64,000 bases of DNA, taken from NCBI GenBank assembly GCA_024449565.1, contig GCA_024449565.1_4810.1; one strand, written 5' to 3'. The notes under the pieces are model-generated. The model saw only the letters and a program-made list of their open reading frames with translations. It ran no database searches and was not told where the DNA came from. Below, piece after piece: positions 1 to 41,055 of the stretch (positions are counted from its first letter, which is position 1; each line of letters starts with the position of its first letter). The translations under genes and the position numbers were made by a program. The stretch is from a phage.

Positions 1-55
1 AAAAAAAATAAAATTAAATTAGATATATAATTTTAAATTAATTTATTTGAATTCC
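1..55. other. AT-rich tract preceding repeat element A (possible DNA-unwinding element)
   Basis: Positions 1-55 are almost entirely A/T; a similar AT-rich tract precedes the second copy of the element near 14900-14960. Confidence 0.35.
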
Positions 56-150
56 TATAAAGTATCGCGGCAACGCGTATCATCCGTATCATCCGTAAGA
101 TTCTTTTGAAAACAACTACTTACTTGATACGGATGATACGTCATTATACG
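56..150. repeat. Iteron-like repeat element A
   Basis: TATAAAGTATCGCGGCAACGCGTATCATCCGTATCATCCGTAAGA (tandem CGTATCATC) followed by inverted copy TACGGATGATACG and CGTCATTATACG; near-identical element at about 14962-15090. Confidence 0.6.
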
Positions 151-184
151 CGTGAAATCCTGCGGCAATCCATTGCCAGGCGAT

Positions 185-3623: not shown

Positions 3624-3728
3624 TGTTAACGCCACCTGACAGTGAAAGGGAATCAATCTATATTATAAATATTCATGTGTTTGTAAGCAAATGATATGTA
3701 TGGTGATCATAAATAGTTCATAAAATAT

Positions 3729-3757
3729 TTTGCTTTTGTATCATTTTGAGTTATATT
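3729..3757 (+). promoter_or_regulatory. sigma70-like promoter TTTGCT-17-TATATT
   Basis: Hexamers with 17-bp spacer about 30 nt upstream of the 3786 ATG. Confidence 0.4.
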
Positions 3758-3785
3758 TTAGTTAACCAAACGAAAGGAGATTGAA

Positions 3786-5978: not shown

Positions 5979-6006
5979 GGCCAGATTCTTTCTGGCCATT
6001 TTTTTT
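5979..6006 (+). terminator. rho-independent terminator
   Basis: GGCCAG-ATTCTTT-CTGGCC hairpin followed by an 8-T run. Confidence 0.55.
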
Positions 6007-6026
6007 GATTAAAATTCACAAAAAGT

Positions 6027-6054
6027 TTGCCTTTCTGAAATTCTGCATTATAAT
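6027..6054 (+). promoter_or_regulatory. sigma70-like promoter TTGCCT-16-TATAAT
   Basis: Near-consensus hexamers about 27 nt upstream of the 6081 ATG. Confidence 0.5.
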
Positions 6055-11059: not shown

Positions 11060-11062
11060 GCC

Positions 11063-11134
11063 TGCCGCGCAGGAGTGTACTGCCGCGCAGGAGTGTACTG
11101 CCGCGCAGGAGTGTACTGCCGCGCAGGAGTGTAC
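11063..11134. repeat. perfect tandem repeat, 4 x 18 bp (TGCCGCGCAGGAGTGTAC)
   Basis: Four identical head-to-tail units read directly from the sequence; a partial fifth unit follows. Confidence 0.9.
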
Positions 11135-11755
11135 TGCAAATTTCCTGTGGGTACAAAATAGTACGGTACTGTCTAGGACTTTTTCTTTGAAAAGTTAGTG
11201 GACCAAATGTGTCGTATTTTGATTAGTGTACCGCAAATTCCATCAAGTAGCAAAACGCACCAAAAGACCCATGCCCTAAAAACCACACGAACGCAATAAT
11301 CAATCGCCGTTACAGTTTCCAGCGTTACAATTAGAAAGCGAATGATTCGATGCATAATAATATGAAGCATAATGATTCGAAAGCTAATGGTTGCGCGTAG
11401 GATGATATCGGGAGGGATTATTCGAGATGCGTGTAATTTCGCATGCGTACTATTTTCGGGCGAAGGGTCGGCATATTCTTCGTTTTAGCTCGGAACGAAG
11501 GGAAAGTTTTGCGCCTTTATAAAACAACGACTTACGCGACCCGCCTTAACGGTCCGATATAGGTGTCTATATAAAACAAGGACTTACGCGATGTTCTCCA
11601 TTTAACGTAATACCTGTTATGCGAACTAAGGCGCATCTCGACGAAGATTGTGCGACGACGAAGGGAAGGATAAAGGAGTTTTCGCGTAGGAGCTCATCGA
11701 GATAGGGACGAAGAAAAGCCGCGACTAAGCGCGGCCTATTAGTAACGGAAGGGTA

Positions 11756-12046
11756 TTATAAGGAGACGATTTTAAAGAAAGAGTAACGGCCTTCGCCTTC
11801 GGATACCGCGATATATTCGCCGCCGAACTCCGTAGCAAAATAAACCTTGCCTTCGATAGTAACGCGGAAGGTAGAAATATCTTCCTCTTCGAGTTCCGTA
11901 AATTCGCTAAAATCGATAGGACTATGAAGCTCCTCGATAGTCGCATCTACGTTAAAGAGATAAACGTTTTTAAGTTTTTCGCCAAATACGTTAGAGTTTT
12001 CGGAAGTTTCGACGCGAGCGGAACGGATAGCGGCCAAAGTAATCAT
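11756..12046 (-). CDS. small acidic protein, paralog family member 1
   Basis: AGGAGA SD; 96 aa, acidic; N-terminus MITLAAIRSARVE and NVDATIEE resemble those of the 12682 and 12154 genes. Confidence 0.5.
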   Translation of the reverse strand: MITLAAIRSARVETSENSNVFGEKLKNVYLFNVDATIEELHSPIDFSEFTELEEEDISTFRVTIEGKVYFATEFGGEYIAVSEGEGRYSFFKIVSL

Positions 12047-12153
12047 AATATTCTCCTAGTTAGTCGGGAGGGTAGCGACCTATTCGCTACCTCATCCCCT
12101 CTCGATATAAAACATTATAGTCTTAGTGTACGAAGAAGTAAAGCACTTTTTCG

Positions 12154-12456
12154 TTATTCTGCGATAAAATATTTATAAGCTTTATCGCCTTCTACGTCGA
12201 TATACTCGACGATAATTAACGCTTCGCCGCGCGGCGTAACCGTCTCGATAAGGGTAACGGCTTCGTCGTCGGTCTTCGCGAAGCGGATTGCGCTACGTTC
12301 GGCGTACTTAATATCATCGAAGGAAAGGCCGACGAAAGCGACCGCGCGGACCTTAATAATGGTAGATTCTAGTTCCGCGTTAACGGCAGCGATAAGAGAG
12401 CGAACGGTTAAACGGTCTTCGTCGTAAGTAAGGATAGAAGAGATTAAAGTAGTCAT
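12154..12456 (-). CDS. small acidic protein, paralog family member 2
   Basis: Start trimmed to ATG MTTLISS with GGGAG SD; same N-terminal pattern as neighbours. Confidence 0.45.
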   Translation of the reverse strand: MTTLISSILTYDEDRLTVRSLIAAVNAELESTIIKVRAVAFVGLSFDDIKYAERSAIRFAKTDDEAVTLIETVTPRGEALIIVEYIDVEGDKAYKYFIAE

Positions 12457-12681
12457 AATAAAACTCCCGATGCTAGTAGAAGGAAGGGCCATCACCCGTC
12501 TCGATACAAACAAGTATACGCGAGTGTACGAAGAAGTAAAGAAAAAAGATAAAATAATTTATCTCATTTTTATCGAAAAAGTGCTTTACTTTTTTCTACA
12601 CTATATTATAATGTACTCATATCGGGACGGGATGAGTTAACGAATAGGTCGTTAACGCCCGTCGAGAACTAGGAGTTTAAA

Positions 12682-12966
12682 ATGGCTATTCTTAACGTTT
12701 CTTCCATCCGTAACGCTATCGTCGAGAACTACGGCGTAAAACAAATTTTATCCGAAGTTTACGCCGCGAACGTAGACCAAACTATCGAGGCGGGTGGGGT
12801 AACGGTCGCCGAGGCTTTTAAACTTTACGCGGCGCTACCGGAATCGGACCGCGAAGCCTTCGAAGTAAACGTTAACGGATACTTCTTCGAAGCGGTCGAA
12901 ATCGGTAACATCTTACTCGTTATGGGCGAAGAAGAATTTGATACCTTCTCCCTCGTCGAAGCGTAA
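12682..12966 (+). CDS. small acidic protein, paralog family member 3
   Basis: AGGAG SD; MAILNVSSIRNAIVE and NVDQTIEA shared with the 11756 gene. Confidence 0.5.
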   Translation: MAILNVSSIRNAIVENYGVKQILSEVYAANVDQTIEAGGVTVAEAFKLYAALPESDREAFEVNVNGYFFEAVEIGNILLVMGEEEFDTFSLVEA

Positions 12967-13046
12967 GAGAGGATTTTTAGAGCGTCGTGCGCGGCGCTTT
13001 AATAAAATTCTTTCGCGCCTAGCGCCCTAACAAATAGGAGTTCATT

Positions 13047-13673
13047 ATGGTTAGCTTAAATCGTTTCTCGACTAGCGGCGACGTTATCGCAACTAAGACC
13101 GCCGACCTCGTTGCATTTTATAATGCAAATTCAGGTTCGAAGCCGATTAAAAAATTTGCGGACCGCCGGACCGCCGAGACTCGCGTAATCGCGCTAATCG
13201 AGTCCTTAAACGCGCTCGATGAGCCGTCCAACGAATCGCCAATCCCCGACGCGAAGCCGCGCGAGGAAGTGTCCAGCGATGTAAAAACGCATAAGGCGCG
13301 TGCGGTCGTTAAAAAGGCAGAGCCGACGCAGGAAGAACTCGACGCGATGAGCGATGAAGAGTATGAAGCCTTCGTTAAGAGCGGCTTAAACGATAGTGCA
13401 AATTGCGTAGTGCAAAATGGAACTCCTTCCCATCGCCGTTCGAATAGCGAAGGTATTGCAAAAAGTTGGGACAATAAGGAAGTGGCGCAAAAGCGTCTCA
13501 CCCGTAACGGCGTTATGGTCGAGGGTGTAGGAGAGTTCAAATCGGTCCGCGCAGCTTTCGCCGCGCTGGGATTACCGGATAGCAAGCACATTCGCTTCCG
13601 TATGAAGCTTAAGGAAGCTGGGCGCTTGAACTTCGAGTTCGGCAACAAGTCCTTTACCTTCCAGATTATCTAA
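13047..13673 (+). CDS. hypothetical protein
   Basis: AGGAG SD; 208 aa; contains two in-frame copies of the TAGTGCAAA(A)T motif. Confidence 0.5.
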   Translation: MVSLNRFSTSGDVIATKTADLVAFYNANSGSKPIKKFADRRTAETRVIALIESLNALDEPSNESPIPDAKPREEVSSDVKTHKARAVVKKAEPTQEELDAMSDEEYEAFVKSGLNDSANCVVQNGTPSHRRSNSEGIAKSWDNKEVAQKRLTRNGVMVEGVGEFKSVRAAFAALGLPDSKHIRFRMKLKEAGRLNFEFGNKSFTFQII

Positions 13674-13723
13674 TCGAATGGCGGCCCTTCGGGGTCGCTT
13701 TTCATAGTGCAAATTGGTGGCTT

Positions 13724-13987
13724 ATGAATACGCTTATTCTCATCGCTACGTTGTCCATCGGAAGTGGTCGCACCTTATCCCTTTATGACCATAGTGCAAA
13801 TTGCGCCTATCCTACGCGCGTTGCGGCGATAGTTAATAGTGCAAATAAGATGCTATTCGAGACTTGCTGGAGGGTCGATAACGAGAAAGGTCGGGTAGTC
13901 TTAGGCTATAGTGCAAATCTGCTGGTGGAGTCGTTCGATTGGACGGTTGAAGGTCGTAAATTGTTACGTAAAGTGACTAAAAGATGA
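13724..13987 (+). CDS. hypothetical protein (questionable; ORF spans three motif copies)
   Basis: ORF with GGTGG upstream, but three ATAGTGCAAAT copies fall in-frame inside it, so coding status is uncertain. Confidence 0.3.
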   Translation: MNTLILIATLSIGSGRTLSLYDHSANCAYPTRVAAIVNSANKMLFETCWRVDNEKGRVVLGYSANLLVESFDWTVEGRKLLRKVTKR

Positions 13988-14101
13988 CTTATAATAATAC
14001 ACTTTCTAACGCGTTTATGGTTACAACCTTCCCCGTCGTATTACCGATGGCCCTAGAAGTGGAGAAAATGTGTTCTAGGGCCGTTTTATAGTGCAAATTG
14101 G

Positions 14102-14575
14102 CTAGTGGCGGGAGAATTGCTCTCCTTCTTTGGCCGCCTCTCCAAAATCCTTGTAGAAATCATCCATGGAACGGCCCATTTTACTATTGCCATTTTCATC
14201 AATCATCGTGATGCCGTAGATGATATTCAGTTCACGAATGGCATTAAGTTTGGCTGATGCCGCGACTTCTGGATCACGCACAAGCTTCACTAGATTGTGG
14301 ATGGAACTCTTTACGCTCCACAATTCCTTCAATGGCATCTCTTCCATACGCTTTTTGTAGCGCATCTTGTAGTACGGATTGCGCTGAGTGCACAGGATTC
14401 GCTGGCCAGTGTAGTTATCGGTCGCAACCTCCATGCCAAATACTAGTGCAAAAGCTGCGCGCATGTCATGGCCTTGAATAACAAGGTCAATGAACTCATC
14501 GAATAATGCCTGATTATGCTCTGCAAATCGCGGGTCTTCAAAGTCTTCAGGCATTGCTACATAATCTTGACTCAT
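14102..14575 (-). CDS. hypothetical protein (possible HTH DNA-binding; small-terminase-like is speculative)
   Basis: Start trimmed to ATG MSQDYVA; the start codon lies inside a motif copy; helix-rich N-terminal segment FIDLVIQGHDMRAAFALVFG. Confidence 0.4.
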   Translation of the reverse strand: MSQDYVAMPEDFEDPRFAEHNQALFDEFIDLVIQGHDMRAAFALVFGMEVATDNYTGQRILCTQRNPYYKMRYKKRMEEMPLKELWSVKSSIHNLVKLVRDPEVAASAKLNAIRELNIIYGITMIDENGNSKMGRSMDDFYKDFGEAAKEGEQFSRH

Positions 14576-14802
14576 AGTGCAAATCCCATAGTGCAAATTA
14601 ATAGTGTGAATTATACAATGAATGAACATTATATTCAAGTGCAGATTGATGTTCAAATTGGCTGTAAACGTACATAAATCATAGTGCTAAATGAATAGCG
14701 GACCGTGATGCGTGGTGTACTGTTTGATACGTATAAAAGAAATCCATCCCTTTCGCCGCTTGCTATGCAAATCAATGACTTAGCCGCTGCTGGCTGGTTG
14801 AA

Positions 14803-15090
14803 GCGTATCATGACGTATCATCCGTATTGCCGCAAGTCTTTGTTTTTACTTATATCTTACGGATAATACGTATAAATATAAGTTCAGTATAAGTATGAGG
14901 ATGTAGAAAAAAATTAATTTAAATTAATTCAAAATGGAGTTAATTGTTTTTTTCAAAGTTGTATAAAGTATAGCGGCGACGCGTATCATCCGTATCATCC
15001 GTAAGATGTACCATTGAACCCAGTCGCGGCGCACCATAGAAGTGTGTGGAGTGAACTACGGATAGGTCCAAATCTTACGTCATTATACGT
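14803..15090. repeat. Iteron-like repeat region B (homolog of element A)
   Basis: GCGTATCATGACGTATCATCCGTATTGCCGCAAG, inverted TTACGGATAATACG, then TATAAAGTATAGCGGCGACGCGTATCATCCGTATCATCCGTAAGATG (near-identical to 56-100) and CGTCATTATACG; AT-rich tract at about 14897-14961. Confidence 0.6.
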
Positions 15091-15374
15091 TTAAATTCTA
15101 TGCGTAAGGTTAGCCAGCTAACTATATCTCCTTTTTAATTTCAAGCGGCAATCCCAGAGACGGCGCACCATGTACACAAACACACCACGGTACACGCTCC
15201 AATTCCTAGTGATTTCCTCTCCAATCCCACAACACCACAGTACAATAATCTTCCAAAACCGCACACATATTCAAGACGCAAAATTCACGTCACAATCCTC
15301 ACTACCAACGACACTCTAATAGATTTACACAAATCAATCGATTTATCCGATAATAAAGACTCACATTCCACAGG

Positions 15375-15399
15375 CAAATAAAAAGGGCCAATCGGCCCT
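15375..15399 (-). terminator. rho-independent terminator (minus strand)
   Basis: GGGCC-AATC-GGCCC hairpin with T-run on the minus strand, directly after the stop of the 15417 gene. Confidence 0.55.
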
Positions 15400-15416
15400 C
15401 TTAACATTAATCATAA

Positions 15417-19137: not shown

Positions 19138-19440
19138 TTAAATCCCCTTAAAAACAAAGCCGCTGATAACAGATTGATAGTAGGTCACGCCGCGCACCTC
19201 TACAACCTTGCAGCGATGGGCCTGGCCCTTATATTCTATCCACCAGACTTCCATATCAGGCAAGTTGTTGCGACGCGTCAACCAGCCGTGAAACAGCTTG
19301 TATGTTTCGCCGACCTTAAAAGGTTTCAGCGTACCGTAAGAATCAACCTTGAATGCGCAGACAACATCTTTGCTGTCTTTGTGTACAGCGTCATGAAATA
19401 ATCCGCTTCTGCCAAACCTTTCGTCGTAACTCATAATCAT
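19138..19440 (-). CDS. hypothetical early protein
   Basis: AAGGAGA SD; FKVGETY motif shared with the 17602 gene. Confidence 0.45.
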   Translation of the reverse strand: MIMSYDERFGRSGLFHDAVHKDSKDVVCAFKVDSYGTLKPFKVGETYKLFHGWLTRRNNLPDMEVWWIEYKGQAHRCKVVEVRGVTYYQSVISGFVFKGI

Positions 19441-19479
19441 TCTCCTTTGCTTGATGAACTAAGTATAATACAGGCAAAT

Positions 19480-19508
19480 AAAAAGGCAAGCATTTAGCTC
19501 ACCTTTTT
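19480..19508 (-). terminator. terminator-promoter unit (minus strand)
   Basis: Hairpin AGGUGAGC-UAAAU-GCUUGCCU (two G-U pairs) plus T-run on minus strand; TTGCCT then 16 nt then TATACT follows; 30-bp identical copy at 20733. Confidence 0.5.
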
Positions 19509-19511
19509 GAA

Positions 19512-19772
19512 TTAAATATTCTTCGCCTCTTCGTGAAGTCCGACCGACCTTAGTTTGCGCCGCAAGTAAGCTTTCTTTTCGCTCTCCCGCCCTTTCGGAG
19601 TAACGCGCCAGCGTAATGTGTTCTCCAGATTCTTGCGTCGGTTGTGCTCGTCGAGTAGCTCTACCAGTGCCTTTGCGTCGTCGAGTGTTAACACCACGGG
19701 CCGCGACCCATTAACGGCTTGTCGAAGCTTCCGCGCGGCAACGGCCAACTTGGTCATCGGACCCTTGTTCAC
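19512..19772 (-). CDS. hypothetical early protein
   Basis: Tiled minus-strand ORF followed by terminator. Confidence 0.45.
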   Translation of the reverse strand: MNKGPMTKLAVAARKLRQAVNGSRPVVLTLDDAKALVELLDEHNRRKNLENTLRWRVTPKGRESEKKAYLRRKLRSVGLHEEAKNI

Positions 19773-20152
19773 GGCAACTCCTTATTCATAGGCGTGATAG
19801 ACAACACCTTCACTTCAGTGATGTCACGGTTGTATTGGCGCTTGATTTGTAGAATCTGAGATTGGATGCGCGCAATAAAGTGCGACGTGATTCCTTCCTT
19901 AACGTTAATCAAGGCCGCAAGCTGAATTGAGTCGATGTCGCTTCTCAATGTTGTTGGACAGTAAATCGTACTTGGTGCGCCGTAAGCCCGTTGCACTTCA
20001 TAAGCAGAAGCTTTGAATGACACAAGAAACATTCTTTCTTCAAGTTGGCTTTCGCTTCTTGGATTCTTATCGCAACCAGACATGTGTTTCACAAACTCTT
20101 CATGCGGAAGGTGCATGACGTCGTGGCAATAAGGGCAGCGTTTCATTCTCAT
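19769..20152 (-). CDS. hypothetical protein with N-terminal Cys/His cluster (zinc-finger-like)
   Basis: CPYCH ... H ... C pattern in first 30 aa. Confidence 0.4.
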   Translation of the reverse strand: MRMKRCPYCHDVMHLPHEEFVKHMSGCDKNPRSESQLEERMFLVSFKASAYEVQRAYGAPSTIYCPTTLRSDIDSIQLAALINVKEGITSHFIARIQSQILQIKRQYNRDITEVKVLSITPMNKELP

Positions 20153-20385
20153 TTTGCATACTCCATAGCATATTGCTGCAGCTTAAATGCAGCCTTGTTC
20201 AATTGTTTGTGCCTTGCGTACAAGCGCTCACGTTCTTCTTCAGGGCAATCGGCACGAAGAATAGTCATGGCAATACTTGACATCGCATTAAGGGTGCGCT
20301 GAAAAGCCGACACCATGCGCAGCTCATTACGCTTGTTGAAAGACAACTTACCCAGCGCGACATTCATAATTGCACCTCGACACAC
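20149..20385 (-). CDS. hypothetical early protein
   Basis: Tiled minus-strand ORF. Confidence 0.4.
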   Translation of the reverse strand: MCRGAIMNVALGKLSFNKRNELRMVSAFQRTLNAMSSIAMTILRADCPEEERERLYARHKQLNKAAFKLQQYAMEYAK

Positions 20386-20681
20386 GATTCACTAGCCTTG
20401 AAGCTCCATCCTTCCAGACCGACTTCGCCGCAACAGCGCACCTTTGCCCATCCAGTCATGAGCCATTGGTGATACTTTTCGAAGTAGGTCGGCTTTTCTG
20501 AATAACAATGTATGAGGCCGTCATTGTCAATGGCCACGTAACGCGTCCAAGGCGCAACGGGTACAACTACGTCGCCGTGGTCCTCTGGCCAAGGCTTGAT
20601 GTGTACAGCTGTGTTCAAGTCTACGTTTAACACGCTTCCTAACCGCTCGTCTTGTTCCTGGTCGATGCCTAAGTAAATCAT
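20364..20681 (-). CDS. hypothetical early protein
   Basis: Start trimmed to ATG MIYLGID with GAGGTGA SD (track ORF begins at a TTG inside the terminator). Confidence 0.4.
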   Translation of the reverse strand: MIYLGIDQEQDERLGSVLNVDLNTAVHIKPWPEDHGDVVVPVAPWTRYVAIDNDGLIHCYSEKPTYFEKYHQWLMTGWAKVRCCGEVGLEGWSFKASESCVEVQL

Positions 20682-20731
20682 AATCACCTCACTTGTTCGT
20701 CTTGATGAAAAGAGTATAATTATTGATAAAA

Positions 20732-20760
20732 GAAAAGGCAAGCATTTAGCTCACCTTTTT
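20732..20760 (-). terminator. terminator-promoter unit (minus strand), copy 2
   Basis: Same hairpin as at 19480; on minus strand TTGCCT then 17 nt then TATACT follows. Confidence 0.5.
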
Positions 20761-20765
20761 GATAT

Positions 20766-21098
20766 TCATTTTACATAGTGGAGTAGGTCAATCTCTATCT
20801 GTTCACGTGTCCTTGTTATCTTTGTATCACCCGTCCGGTGAGAGAATCGATAGATGGTCAACTCTCCGTCATTTCCTCTGTCAAACTTCATGCTGGCTAG
20901 TCTACAAGCATATATTGCATTAAGCCTTTCGCCATAAGACAGAAGATTGAAGGTCAATACTGTGTTGCCCATTCTTGCATTTTCTTTTATGCACTTCTTT
21001 AAGAAGTAATAAGAATCAGCAAATGCATTGGCCTTCTTCCACACTTCCTTTATCAATCCACGCTCATGCGCGGCGAGTATTTGATCACGGGTCATCAC
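20766..21098 (-). CDS. hypothetical early protein
   Basis: Tiled minus-strand ORF followed by terminator. Confidence 0.45.
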   Translation of the reverse strand: MMTRDQILAAHERGLIKEVWKKANAFADSYYFLKKCIKENARMGNTVLTFNLLSYGERLNAIYACRLASMKFDRGNDGELTIYRFSHRTGDTKITRTREQIEIDLLHYVK

Positions 21099-28105: not shown

Positions 28106-28131
28106 TATAATATTGAGTGATACAAAGTCAA
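28106..28131 (-). promoter_or_regulatory. sigma70-like promoter TTGACT-16-TATACT (minus strand)
   Basis: Read on the minus strand upstream of the 28074 start; divergent from the plus-strand promoter at 28168. Confidence 0.45.
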
Positions 28132-34078: not shown

Positions 34079-34125
34079 TTTACTTGTGCGTTTCGATGAG
34101 TTATATTTATCTCATCGAAACGAAG
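34079..34125 (+). promoter_or_regulatory. promoter TTTACT-17-TATATT with perfect 12-bp inverted-repeat operator
   Basis: CGTTTCGATGAG (34089-34100) and CTCATCGAAACG (34111-34122) flank the -10; related element at 41010-41055. Confidence 0.5.
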
Positions 34126-41009: not shown

Positions 41010-41055
41010 TTGACTTGTCACGGAAGATGAGTCATAATTACTTCATCGAAACGAA
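41010..41055 (+). promoter_or_regulatory. promoter TTGACT-17-CATAAT with operator-like element
   Basis: Shares GATGAGT ... TCATCGAAACGAA with the 34079 element. Confidence 0.45.

What the first reader, a model, noticed from the sequence alone, without database searches (positions are those of the whole stretch)
19480..20760. Identical 30-bp terminator element reused twice, each fused to a promoter
AAAAGGCAAGCATTTAGCTCACCTTTTTGA occurs at 19480 and 20733. On the minus strand each forms a hairpin plus T-run directly after a gene, then provides a TTGCCT -35 followed 16-17 nt later by TATACT. A related unit sits at 15375-15399. These compact terminator-promoter cassettes would partition the early region into separately tuned transcription units.
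Basis: seen in the sequence. Interest (0 to 1): 0.45.

Follow-up and report, generated by a model that had tools for sequence, protein, structure and literature searches.

The report
Duplicated terminator-promoter unit in a coliphage
Two copies of one short hairpin in a Wifcevirus coliphage each look like a leaky stop signal for transcription, with a host-type promoter built into the hairpin's second arm; this is a known kind of phage regulatory cassette, seen here in a phage genus where it had not been described.

Summary
An exact 30-mer lies at 19481-19510 and 20733-20762, where none is expected by chance. The window is a Wifcevirus, a 68-kb E. coli myovirus. On the transcribed minus strand each copy folds into a 7-bp core hairpin with two G.U pairs, lengthened by A.U pairs and followed by a U-run. 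The hairpins start 3 and 5 nt after a stop codon.

The 3' arm of the stem contains TTGCCT, followed 16 or 17 nt later by TATACT. This belongs to a promoter-like family, TTGCYT-N16/17-TATAMT, found 8 times in the window against 0.07 expected. All eight sites are intergenic and face a gene.

Across 22 genomes (44 copies), the stem, -35, -10, spacer length and a TTCATCAAG box never vary. Loop and spacer bases do vary, as do 35% of flanking coding columns.

GenBank records of phages WFC and WFH already annotate both hairpins as predicted terminators. The promoter half and the duplication are not annotated there, and were not discussed in the papers I found.

The closest known parallel is the PeSL (promoter-early stem-loop) cassette of T4-type phages. 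One stray 943-nt contig carries a single chimeric unit that lacks the four genes lying between the two copies. No function has been measured.

Verdict: an ordinary regulatory feature and a new member of a known kind.

The parts
20766..21098 (-). Gene g9 (110 aa, no known family). Its TGA stop (20768-20766) lies 5 nt before the site 2 hairpin.
   Evidence: ORF list; sequence; no Pfam or PHROG match.
20733..20759 (-). Site 2 hairpin AAAAGGTGAGC-TAAAT-GCTTGCCTTTT. The core stem is 20755-20749 / 20743-20737, the loop 20748-20744, and the U-run continues to about 20726.
   Evidence: 11 pairs, T-rich tail; -14.2 kcal/mol, z -4.0. Invariant in 22 genomes.
20713..20741 (-). Site 2 sigma-70-type promoter: -35 TTGCCT (20741-20736, inside the 3' arm of the stem), 17-nt spacer, -10 TATACT (20718-20713).
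   Evidence: Hexamers and spacer length are invariant in 22 genomes while spacer bases vary.
20701..20709 (-). TTCATCAAG box 3 nt after the -10, shared by both sites. The inferred transcription start is the A at about 20706.
   Evidence: 22/22 invariant. The start-site position is inferred from the usual 7-nt distance after the -10.
19512..20681 (-). Four-gene cassette between the two units: g10 20364-20681, g11 20149-20385, g12 19769-20152, g13 19512-19772. All are ORFans; g10 matches phrog_1972, of unknown function.
   Evidence: Gene-order maps. The cassette is absent from contig L048.
19480..19508 (-). Site 1 hairpin with the same stem and loop as site 2. The core stem is 19503-19497 / 19491-19485, the loop 19496-19492, and the U-run TTTTTATTT is 19484-19476. 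It starts 3 nt after the TAA stop of g13 (19514-19512).
   Evidence: -14.7 kcal/mol, z -3.95. The stem is invariant in 22 genomes; loop variants are TAAGT (3) and TATAT (2).
19462..19489 (-). Site 1 sigma-70-type promoter: -35 TTGCCT (19489-19484, in the 3' arm of the stem), 16-nt spacer, -10 TATACT (19467-19462).
   Evidence: The second TTGCCT inside the spacer (19478-19473) varies among genomes (TTGTCT, TTGACT, TTACCT, CTGTCT), so it is not the functional hexamer.
19450..19458 (-). TTCATCAAG box of site 1. The inferred transcription start is at about 19455. It is followed by the SD AAGGAG and the start of g14 (ATG 19440, or the better-spaced ATG 19434).
19138..19440 (-). g14 (100 aa, ORFan), the first gene driven by the site 1 promoter. 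In other genomes a different gene occupies this position (g14b, g49 or g15).
15350..15400 (-). Looser third unit at the end of the minus-strand cluster: hairpin GAGGGCCGATTGGCCCTT (15400-15383), T-run, then TTGCCT (15377-15372), 16 nt, TATTAT (15355-15350).
   Evidence: Present in 12 of 22 genomes, with a variable -35. Annotated as a terminator in WFH.

Best explanation
Each copy is a two-in-one regulatory unit of about 85 nt that fills the gap between two small genes of the host-RNA-polymerase-dependent gene cluster of a Wifcevirus. The cluster is on the minus strand and runs from about 28130 down to about 15400.

Mechanism, as inferred:
1. Transcripts arriving from upstream form the hairpin GGUGAGC-UAAAU-GCUUGCC, lengthened by A.U pairs and followed by a U-run. 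Part of the polymerases terminate there.
2. The stem is only moderately stable, and it starts 3-5 nt after a stop codon, within reach of a terminating ribosome. It therefore probably attenuates rather than blocks.
3. The same DNA then serves as a promoter. TTGCCT in the 3' arm of the stem is the -35 hexamer, and TATACT 16 or 17 nt later is the -10. Transcription restarts about 7 nt further on, within the conserved TTCATCAAG box, and the new mRNA has its own Shine-Dalgarno sequence.
4. The result is three consecutive transcription units: genes upstream of site 2; g10-g13; g14 onward. Each has an output partly uncoupled from the flow arriving from upstream.

The two copies are paralogues of one ancestral unit, held by purifying selection rather than by ongoing copying between the sites. 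As direct repeats they can also recombine, and one contig appears to have lost the g10-g13 cassette in this way.

Shown: the sequence, the fold, the positions, the motif enrichment and the conservation pattern. Inferred: termination, initiation, leakiness and timing.
For: - Exact duplicate, with none expected by chance.
- Strand-specific fold: -14.7/-14.2 kcal/mol on the minus strand against -9.7/-11.8 with internal mismatches on the plus strand.
- The terminator scan picks up site 2. WFC and WFH GenBank records annotate both hairpins as 'putative transcriptional terminator, -10.10', predicted with ARNold.
- TTGCYT-N16/17-TATAMT occurs 8 times in the window against 0.07 expected. All eight are intergenic and point at a gene start. 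With A or C allowed at hexamer position 4 the count is 9 against 0.13.
- In 22 genomes x 2 sites, the 22 stem bases, TTGCCT, TATACT, the spacer length (17 and 16) and TTCATCAAG are invariant. By contrast, 31 of 88 upstream coding columns vary at each site, and spacer bases, the 3 nt after the -10 and the SD-to-ATG distance also vary.
- Loop changes at site 1 (TAAGT, TATAT) leave the fold energy unchanged and are not mirrored at site 2.
- The core stem is -8.7 kcal/mol, against -11.8 to -12.1 for three other terminator-like hairpins of the window.
- Phage 14-1 (Pbunavirus), described as a distant relative of Wifcevirus, has 26 sigma-70-like promoters and 14 terminators mapped by ONT-cappable-seq (PMC10914365).
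- Contig L048 matches site 2 up to TATACTC and site 1 from AGTTCATCAAG onward, with the cassette missing.
Against: - No RNA-end data exist for any Wifcevirus, so neither termination nor initiation is demonstrated.
- The stem never varies, so there is no compensatory change to prove that pairing, rather than sequence, is what is selected.
- TTGCCT matches the -35 consensus at only 4 of 6 positions.
- Because the -35 lies inside the stem, its conservation cannot be separated from that of the hairpin.
- All genomes compared belong to one genus and are not independent samples.
- The recombinant is a single 943-nt contig in a Xanthomonas pisi draft assembly. It is presumably phage DNA contamination, and it could be a laboratory chimera.
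Confidence: 0.72

Rival explanations
1. The hairpins are terminators only. The TTGCCT/TATACT pair is an incidental match in AT-rich intergenic DNA, and the downstream genes are expressed by read-through.
For: The general promoter scan finds 28 sites against 22 expected in this region, so loose consensus matches are common. TTGCCT is only a 4/6 match to the -35 consensus.
Against: The specific family TTGCYT-N16/17-TATAMT is enriched 8 against 0.07 and is found only upstream of genes. TATACT and the spacer length are invariant in 44 copies, while neighbouring bases and the SD-ATG distance vary.
Confidence: 0.1
2. The hairpin is chiefly a sequence-specific RNA site for a phage or host factor, such as an antiterminator of the lambda N/boxB type or an RNase processing or stabilising site. 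That would explain why the same stem and loop are used twice and never change.
For: Stem and loop are identical at two sites although the spacers between -35 and -10 have diverged. There are no compensatory changes.
Against: - The loop varies freely at site 1 in 5 of 22 genomes.
- A different terminator hairpin of the same region (site 3) is almost as invariant in its stem. It shows one stem change in 12 genomes, so invariance is what this shallow phylogeny gives.
- The same stem with other loops, followed by a T-run, occurs in unrelated bacteria, which suggests a generic terminator shape.
- No Rfam family matches.
Confidence: 0.08
3. The units exist mainly as recombination linkers, that is, boundaries of a mobile gene cassette. 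Regulation is secondary.
For: Contig L048 lacks exactly the DNA between the two units and carries one chimeric unit. Different genes abut the units in different genomes: the site 1 unit has four different downstream neighbours, and there are insertions directly upstream of both hairpins and downstream of the site 2 promoter.
Against: - All 29 deposited Wifcevirus records keep both copies, and none has the chimeric junction.
- Gene content also varies at many junctions that have no such unit.
- This reading does not explain the invariant hexamers and spacing.
Confidence: 0.07
4. The repeat is a DNA-level operator, an inverted repeat bound by a repressor that shuts off the two promoters.
For: The inverted repeat overlaps the -35 hexamer, a classic operator position.
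Against: The DNA palindrome is imperfect at exactly the two positions that give G.U pairs in the minus-strand RNA and A.C mismatches in the other strand. The repeat is followed by a U-run and sits right after a stop codon, features that have no role in an operator.
Confidence: 0.03

Closest known systems
PeSL (promoter-early stem-loop) cassettes of T4-type phages RB49, phi1, T4/PST and KVP40/nt-1 (Arbiol et al. 2010, PMC2839356; Comeau et al. 2014, PMC4122927)
   Same: - A composite intergenic unit running from the stop codon of one small ORFan to the SD/ATG of the next.
- A sigma-70-like promoter plus a stem-loop that acts as terminator or attenuator.
- The stem-loop may overlap the -35, stems contain G-T pairs, and the region upstream is AT-rich.
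- Located in a region of variable gene content.
- Recombination between two units removes the genes in between. The crossover mapped between -10 and SD in PeSL mini-circles; here it lies between TATACT and TTCATCAAG in L048.
   Different: - Only two full copies per genome, plus one loose relative, against dozens in RB49/phi1.
- The stem is AGGTGAGC/GCTTGCCT, not the GGGG...CCCC type.
- The phage belongs to an unrelated family: the taxonomy line of one relative's record (phage kaset) places Wifcevirus in Lindbergviridae.
- Promoter and terminator activity and mini-circles were measured for PeSLs but not here.
Rho-independent (intrinsic) terminators of E. coli and its phages
   Same: A stem of 7 core pairs with 4 G-C pairs, a 5-nt loop, an A-tract before and a U-tract after, placed just after a stop codon. 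ARNold predicts both sites in WFC and WFH.
   Different: Two G.U pairs make the core weaker (-8.7 kcal/mol) than other terminator-like hairpins of the same phage. The 3' arm doubles as a -35 hexamer.
Morons of lambdoid phages (a gene flanked by its own promoter and terminator)
   Same: A terminator and a promoter bracket an accessory gene block, so that it is transcriptionally insulated.
   Different: According to the PeSL authors, moron flanks are not conserved repeats and are not thought to mediate the exchange. Here the two flanks are the same sequence.
Lambda nutL/nutR boxB hairpins
   Same: A near-identical short RNA hairpin is used at two places in the early transcripts (from general knowledge).
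   Different: boxB is not followed by a U-run and does not contain a promoter element. It lies downstream of its promoter, whereas here the hairpin lies upstream of the promoter it overlaps. No N-like factor was identified.

Membership tests
Intrinsic (Rho-independent) terminator | G+C-containing stem-loop on the transcribed strand, immediately followed by a U-rich tract | tested here: met
   Seven core pairs (4 G-C, 2 G.U, 1 A-U) plus 4-5 A.U pairs and a 5-nt loop, followed by TTTTTATTT or TTTTCTTTTAT.
Intrinsic (Rho-independent) terminator | Position at the 3' end of a gene or operon, on its strand | tested here: met
   The hairpins start 3 and 5 nt after the stops of g13 and g9.
Intrinsic (Rho-independent) terminator | Selection on pairing (stem conserved, loop free, or compensatory changes) | tested here: inconclusive
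   There are 0 changes in 22 stem bases x 44 copies and 2 variable loop positions at site 1. No compensatory change exists in this shallow genus.
Intrinsic (Rho-independent) terminator | RNA 3' ends in the U-tract, in vivo or in vitro | not testable with these tools
   No Wifcevirus transcript-end mapping appeared among the papers returned, judged by title and abstract.
Sigma-70-type promoter | -35 and -10 hexamers close to consensus with a 16-18 nt spacer | tested here: met
   TTGCCT (4/6) and TATACT (5/6), with spacers of 16 and 17 nt.
Sigma-70-type promoter | Placed upstream of a gene, and part of a recurrent motif in the genome | tested here: met
   Eight sites against 0.07 expected, all intergenic and correctly oriented.
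Sigma-70-type promoter | Hexamers and spacing conserved more than the spacer sequence | tested here: met
   hexamers and spacer length are invariant in 44/44 copies, while spacer bases vary.
Sigma-70-type promoter | Primary 5' ends or reporter activity | not testable with these tools
   The only data are from a distant relative: 26 sigma-70-like promoters were mapped in Pbunavirus 14-1.
PeSL cassette (T4-type phages) | Composite unit of sigma-70-like promoter plus stem-loop between the stop codon and the next SD/ATG | tested here: met
   compared with the definition quoted.
PeSL cassette (T4-type phages) | Many similar copies concentrated in hyperplastic regions of ORFans | tested here: not met
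   There are only two copies per genome in all 29 records. The region is rich in ORFans and mosaic, but the copy number is far lower than in RB49/phi1.
PeSL cassette (T4-type phages) | Indels between close relatives bounded by the units, through recombination between units | tested here: met
   L048 has a chimeric unit and lacks the cassette. Insertions abut the units in WFC/Bas100, RCIP0319, EC150/CWP003 and Bas101. This rests on one contig for the deletion, and indels are also frequent elsewhere.
PeSL cassette (T4-type phages) | Host phage is a T4-like myovirus | tested here: not met
   The window is a Wifcevirus.
PeSL cassette (T4-type phages) | Circular excision products (mini-circles) | not testable with these tools
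   This needs inverse PCR or long-read sequencing of infected cells.

The most novel reading that the evidence does not exclude
The two units could be the ends of an excisable module. Recombination between them would cut out and re-insert the g10-g13 cassette, as proposed for PeSL mini-circles. Separately or in addition, the invariant hairpin could be read by a phage-encoded factor that switches the two attenuators off together, timing expression of the genes behind them. Either reading would extend promoter/stem-loop-mediated module shuffling, or nut-like control, to a phage family where neither is known.
Probability: 0.12. Interest if true: 0.55.

Novelty: new member of a known kind. Interest (0 to 1): 0.3.

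Why it matters
The BASEL paper states that the biology of Wifcevirus phages is little known. I found no mapped promoter or transcript end for the genus.

This analysis gives:
- a testable promoter consensus (TTGCYT-N16/17-TATAMT);
- three predicted transcription units in the ORFan-rich region;
- two compact 85-nt parts that combine insulation and re-initiation, which could be useful for engineering these phages.

It also suggests that the PeSL principle is not confined to T4-like phages. In that principle a conserved terminator/promoter linker both regulates accessory gene blocks and allows their exchange. The evidence for exchange here is one contig.

A practical point: several GenBank records start a CDS at the ATG inside the hairpin loop, which is probably wrong.

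Tried and rejected
- Covariation test: not possible. The flanking proteins g13 and g9 have no relatives outside the genus in IMG/VR, and g13 has none in the phage records. g14 has 37-40% relatives in 45-kb coliphages, but I did not examine them because the unit itself does not occur in those records.
- Rfam: no family reaches threshold anywhere in the window.
- Host origin: no match to the 76-nt unit in 5,426 complete E. coli genomes.
- Function of the regulated genes: no Pfam match above threshold for g9-g14 or for the inserted genes of RCIP0319, EC150, Bas100 and Bas101. In particular there is no homing endonuclease that could explain the insertions. Only phrog_1972 (unknown function) matches, for g10.
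- Mini-ORF or N-terminal extension: the loop ATG is preceded by AAGGTGA and is in frame with the downstream gene in 17 of 22 genomes at site 1. I rejected this for three reasons. The peptide changes non-conservatively (A to V, D or T). Five genomes break the frame. The ATG lies upstream of the predicted start of the promoter's own transcript.
- Ongoing gene conversion between the copies: rejected, because the site 1 loop variants are not copied to site 2.
- Second TTGCCT of site 1 as the -35: rejected, because it is variable and only 4 nt from the -10.
- Antisense promoter TTGTTC-16-TATAAT at 20693-20720: the spacer bases that form its -10 differ in all 21 other genomes.
- Search for a second genome with the chimeric junction: none in IMG/VR or in the phage records.
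Full report
**1. What the window is**

The region 18500-21800 matches 29 phage records at 85-92% identity. All are Wifcevirus or unclassified close relatives (TH35, WFC, WFH, FEC19, vB_Eco4M-7, Bas98-101 and others). These are virulent E. coli/Shigella myoviruses of 66-72 kb. The taxonomy line of one record (phage kaset) places the genus in Lindbergviridae. The BASEL paper describes Pbunavirus as a distant relative.

The finding lies in a run of small minus-strand genes from about 28074 down to 15417. The run also contains the primase/P-loop ATPase gene. By comparison with phage WFC, the 3784-bp terminal repeat maps to window positions of about 11150-14935, so this cluster runs toward the right genome end.

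**2. The observation**

The 30-mer occurs exactly twice, at 19481-19510 and 20733-20762. No further match appears within 3 mismatches, and none is expected by chance. With flanks the repeat is 35 nt at 94% identity.

On the minus strand both copies fold as AAAAGGUGAGC-UAAAU-GCUUGCCUUUU:
- Energies are -14.7 and -14.2 kcal/mol, z about -4, and 0 of 200 shuffles fold as well.
- Two of the pairs are G.U.
- On the plus strand these positions become A.C mismatches and the fold weakens to -9.7 and -11.8 kcal/mol with an internal loop.

The structure is therefore specific to the strand that is transcribed. This argues for an RNA-level role and against a DNA operator.

The hairpins begin 3 nt after the TAA of ORF 19512-19772 and 5 nt after the TGA of ORF 20766-21098. 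They are followed by TTTTTATTT and TTTTCTTTTAT.

**3. Already annotated in part**

The GenBank records of WFC and WFH mark both hairpins as 'putative transcriptional terminator, -10.10'. The paper describing those phages used ARNold and discusses neither the hairpins nor any promoter. Among the papers returned for the genus name and for vB_Eco4M-7, I saw none, by title and abstract, that maps Wifcevirus transcripts. The BASEL paper says the biology of these phages is little known.

**4. The promoter half**

TTGCCT lies in the 3' arm of the stem and is followed after 16 nt (site 1) or 17 nt (site 2) by TATACT. A loose consensus scan is not informative here, giving 28 sites against 22 expected.

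The specific pattern TTGCYT-N16/17-TATAMT is informative. It occurs 8 times in the window against 0.07 expected. Allowing A or C at the fourth position gives 9 against 0.13. All eight sites lie in intergenic DNA and point at the next gene. They are at 3690(-), 6027(+), 19489(-), 20741(-), 26990(-), 28168(+), 31875(+) and 53420(-). The ninth, TTGACT-16-TATACT at 28131(-), heads the minus-strand cluster.

The phage thus has a recognisable family of host-type promoters, and the two sites are members of it. In the distantly related phage 14-1, 26 sigma-70-like promoters and 14 terminators were mapped experimentally, and several of those promoters are active in E. coli (PMC10914365). That makes dependence on host polymerase plausible for this lineage.

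**5. Conservation**

I collected both sites from 22 genomes: the window, 19 GenBank phages and two IMG/VR contigs.

Invariant in all 44 copies:
- the 22 stem bases;
- TTGCCT and TATACT;
- the spacer length (17 nt at site 2, 16 nt at site 1);
- a TTCATCAAG box 3 nt after the -10.

Variable:
- 31 of 88 columns of the upstream coding sequence at each site;
- spacer bases;
- the 3 nt after the -10;
- the SD-to-ATG distance.

The only changes inside the hairpin are in the loop of site 1: TAAGT in 3 genomes and TATAT in 2. These do not alter the fold energy.

This is the pattern expected of a hairpin plus a promoter, with stem, hexamers and spacing fixed and loop and spacer sequence free. It is not proof, for two reasons. 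No compensatory change exists. And a different terminator hairpin in the same region (site 3) is nearly as invariant in its stem, so this shallow phylogeny gives invariance cheaply.

The site 1 loop variants are not mirrored at site 2. The identity of the two copies is therefore held by selection or recent common origin, not by continuing conversion.

**6. Strength**

The core stem folds at -8.7 kcal/mol. Three other terminator-like hairpins of the window, near 15390, 25750 and 5995, fold at -11.8 to -12.1.

This weaker stem, together with its closeness to the stop codon, points to partial termination. The ribosome argument is inference from general knowledge: a terminating ribosome would cover the 5' arm. 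The role of the built-in promoter would then be to reset expression for the next block.

The predicted units are: genes upstream of site 2; g10-g13 (20681-19512); and g14 onward to the hairpin at 15400-15383.

**7. The third unit**

At 15400-15350 there is a different hairpin, a T-run, and then TTGCCT-16-TATTAT. It shares the 16 nt CTTTTTATTTGCCTGT with site 1. It is present in only 12 of the 22 genomes, and its -35 varies (TTGCTT, TTGTCC, TTGCCC). It is a looser relative in which the -35 is not part of the stem.

**8. Recombination**

The gene maps show a mosaic region. Several differences abut the units:
- A 64-aa gene is inserted between g9 and the site 2 hairpin in WFC and Bas100.
- Three genes are inserted between g13 and the site 1 hairpin in RCIP0319.
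- An extra gene lies directly after the site 2 promoter in EC150 and CWP003.
- Four different genes follow the site 1 promoter in different genomes.

Indels are also common at junctions without such units, so the units are not required for exchange.

A scan of genome assemblies with a loop-degenerate pattern found a 943-nt contig filed under Xanthomonas pisi DSM 18956, which is presumably phage contamination. Bases 1-556 match the site 2 region at 97.7% (TH32), and bases 560-943 match a g14b-type gene at 93.8% (AV128). The contig contains g9, one unit and that g14b-type gene. The unit is site 2 sequence up to TATACTC and site 1 sequence from AGTTCATCAAG onward, and g10-g13 are absent.

The shared strings at the junction are 7 and 9 nt, too short for an assembler to mis-join. 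No other record has this junction, so it remains a single observation.

**9. Comparison with known systems**

The closest parallel is the PeSL cassette of T4-type phages. PeSLs are sigma-70-like promoters combined with a stem-loop terminator/attenuator. The stem-loop may overlap the -35, and stems contain G-T pairs. They sit between ORFans in hyperplastic regions. They recombine with each other, with crossovers mapped between the -10 and the SD (PMC2839356; PMC4122927).

The Wifcevirus units work like PeSLs on every sequence-level criterion. They differ in copy number (two rather than dozens), in stem sequence and in phage lineage. I therefore call them functional analogues, not members of that family.

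The same stem with other loops, followed by a T-run, turns up in unrelated bacteria. This fits a generic terminator shape rather than a phage-specific protein site.

**10. Verdict**

The feature is a normal kind of phage regulatory architecture. The terminator half is already annotated in two relatives. The promoter half, the duplication and the possible role in cassette loss are not in those annotations or in the papers I read. I score interest as modest.

Noticed in passing
window 13393-14690 (+ strand): The 10-mer ATAGTGCAAA occurs 8 times exactly, plus 3 one-mismatch copies, all in the same orientation and within 1.3 kb. This lies inside the stretch that corresponds to the terminal repeat of phage WFC. 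It could be an array of protein-binding sites.
   Followed up: partly
window 11062-11151: An 18-bp tandem repeat, CTGCCGCGCAGGAGTGTA x3.7 (D1), sits at the inner edge of the region that matches the 3784-bp terminal repeat of WFC.
   Followed up: partly
window 36-159 and 14942-15098: A 66-nt repeat at 85% identity plus a 23-nt repeat, spaced about 14.9 kb apart (D3 and D11). The second copy begins at the position equivalent to base 1 of the WFC genome. Function unknown.
   Followed up: no
window 34095-34124, 41026-41055, 3745-3774 (+ strand): A 30-nt motif, GATGAGTTATATTTATCTCATCGAAACGAA, recurs at 87% and 73% identity. Each copy ends about 15-20 nt before a + strand start codon. It is a candidate phage-specific promoter or 5' leader for another gene class.
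   Followed up: no
window 19494-19492 and 20746-20744 (ATG in the hairpin loop); loci L010, L012, L018 position 5023: The loop ATG is preceded by AAGGTGA. At site 1 its frame runs into the downstream gene in 17 of 22 genomes. GenBank CDSs of AV128, kaset and Bas101 start there, which is probably an over-extended start.
   Followed up: yes
locus L048 (NZ_JPLE01000312.1, 943 nt): A contig filed under Xanthomonas pisi DSM 18956 is Wifcevirus DNA, 97.7% identical to TH32 over bases 1-556. This is most likely contamination of that assembly. It carries the cassette-less chimeric unit.
   Followed up: partly
loci L030, L031, L033, L035-L037, L039, L040, L042-L047, L049, L050: The stem AAAGGTGAGC/GCTTGCCTTT with unrelated loops and a following T-run occurs in metagenome contigs and in Flavobacteriia, Clostridia, Campylobacter and other assemblies. 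There are 8 non-phage hits in 596 Gb, where about 1 is expected for 20 fixed bases. The expectation is my own estimate.
   Followed up: partly
window 20693-20720 (+ strand): A promoter-like TTGTTC-16-TATAAT lies antisense to the site 2 promoter and faces the weaker + strand version of the hairpin. The bases forming its -10 differ in the other 21 genomes.
   Followed up: yes
window 5990-6054 (+ strand): Another terminator-like hairpin, GGCCAGATTCTTTCTGGCC plus T8, is followed about 22 nt later by TTGCCT-16-TATAAT. This is a non-overlapping version of the same terminator-then-promoter layout.
   Followed up: no
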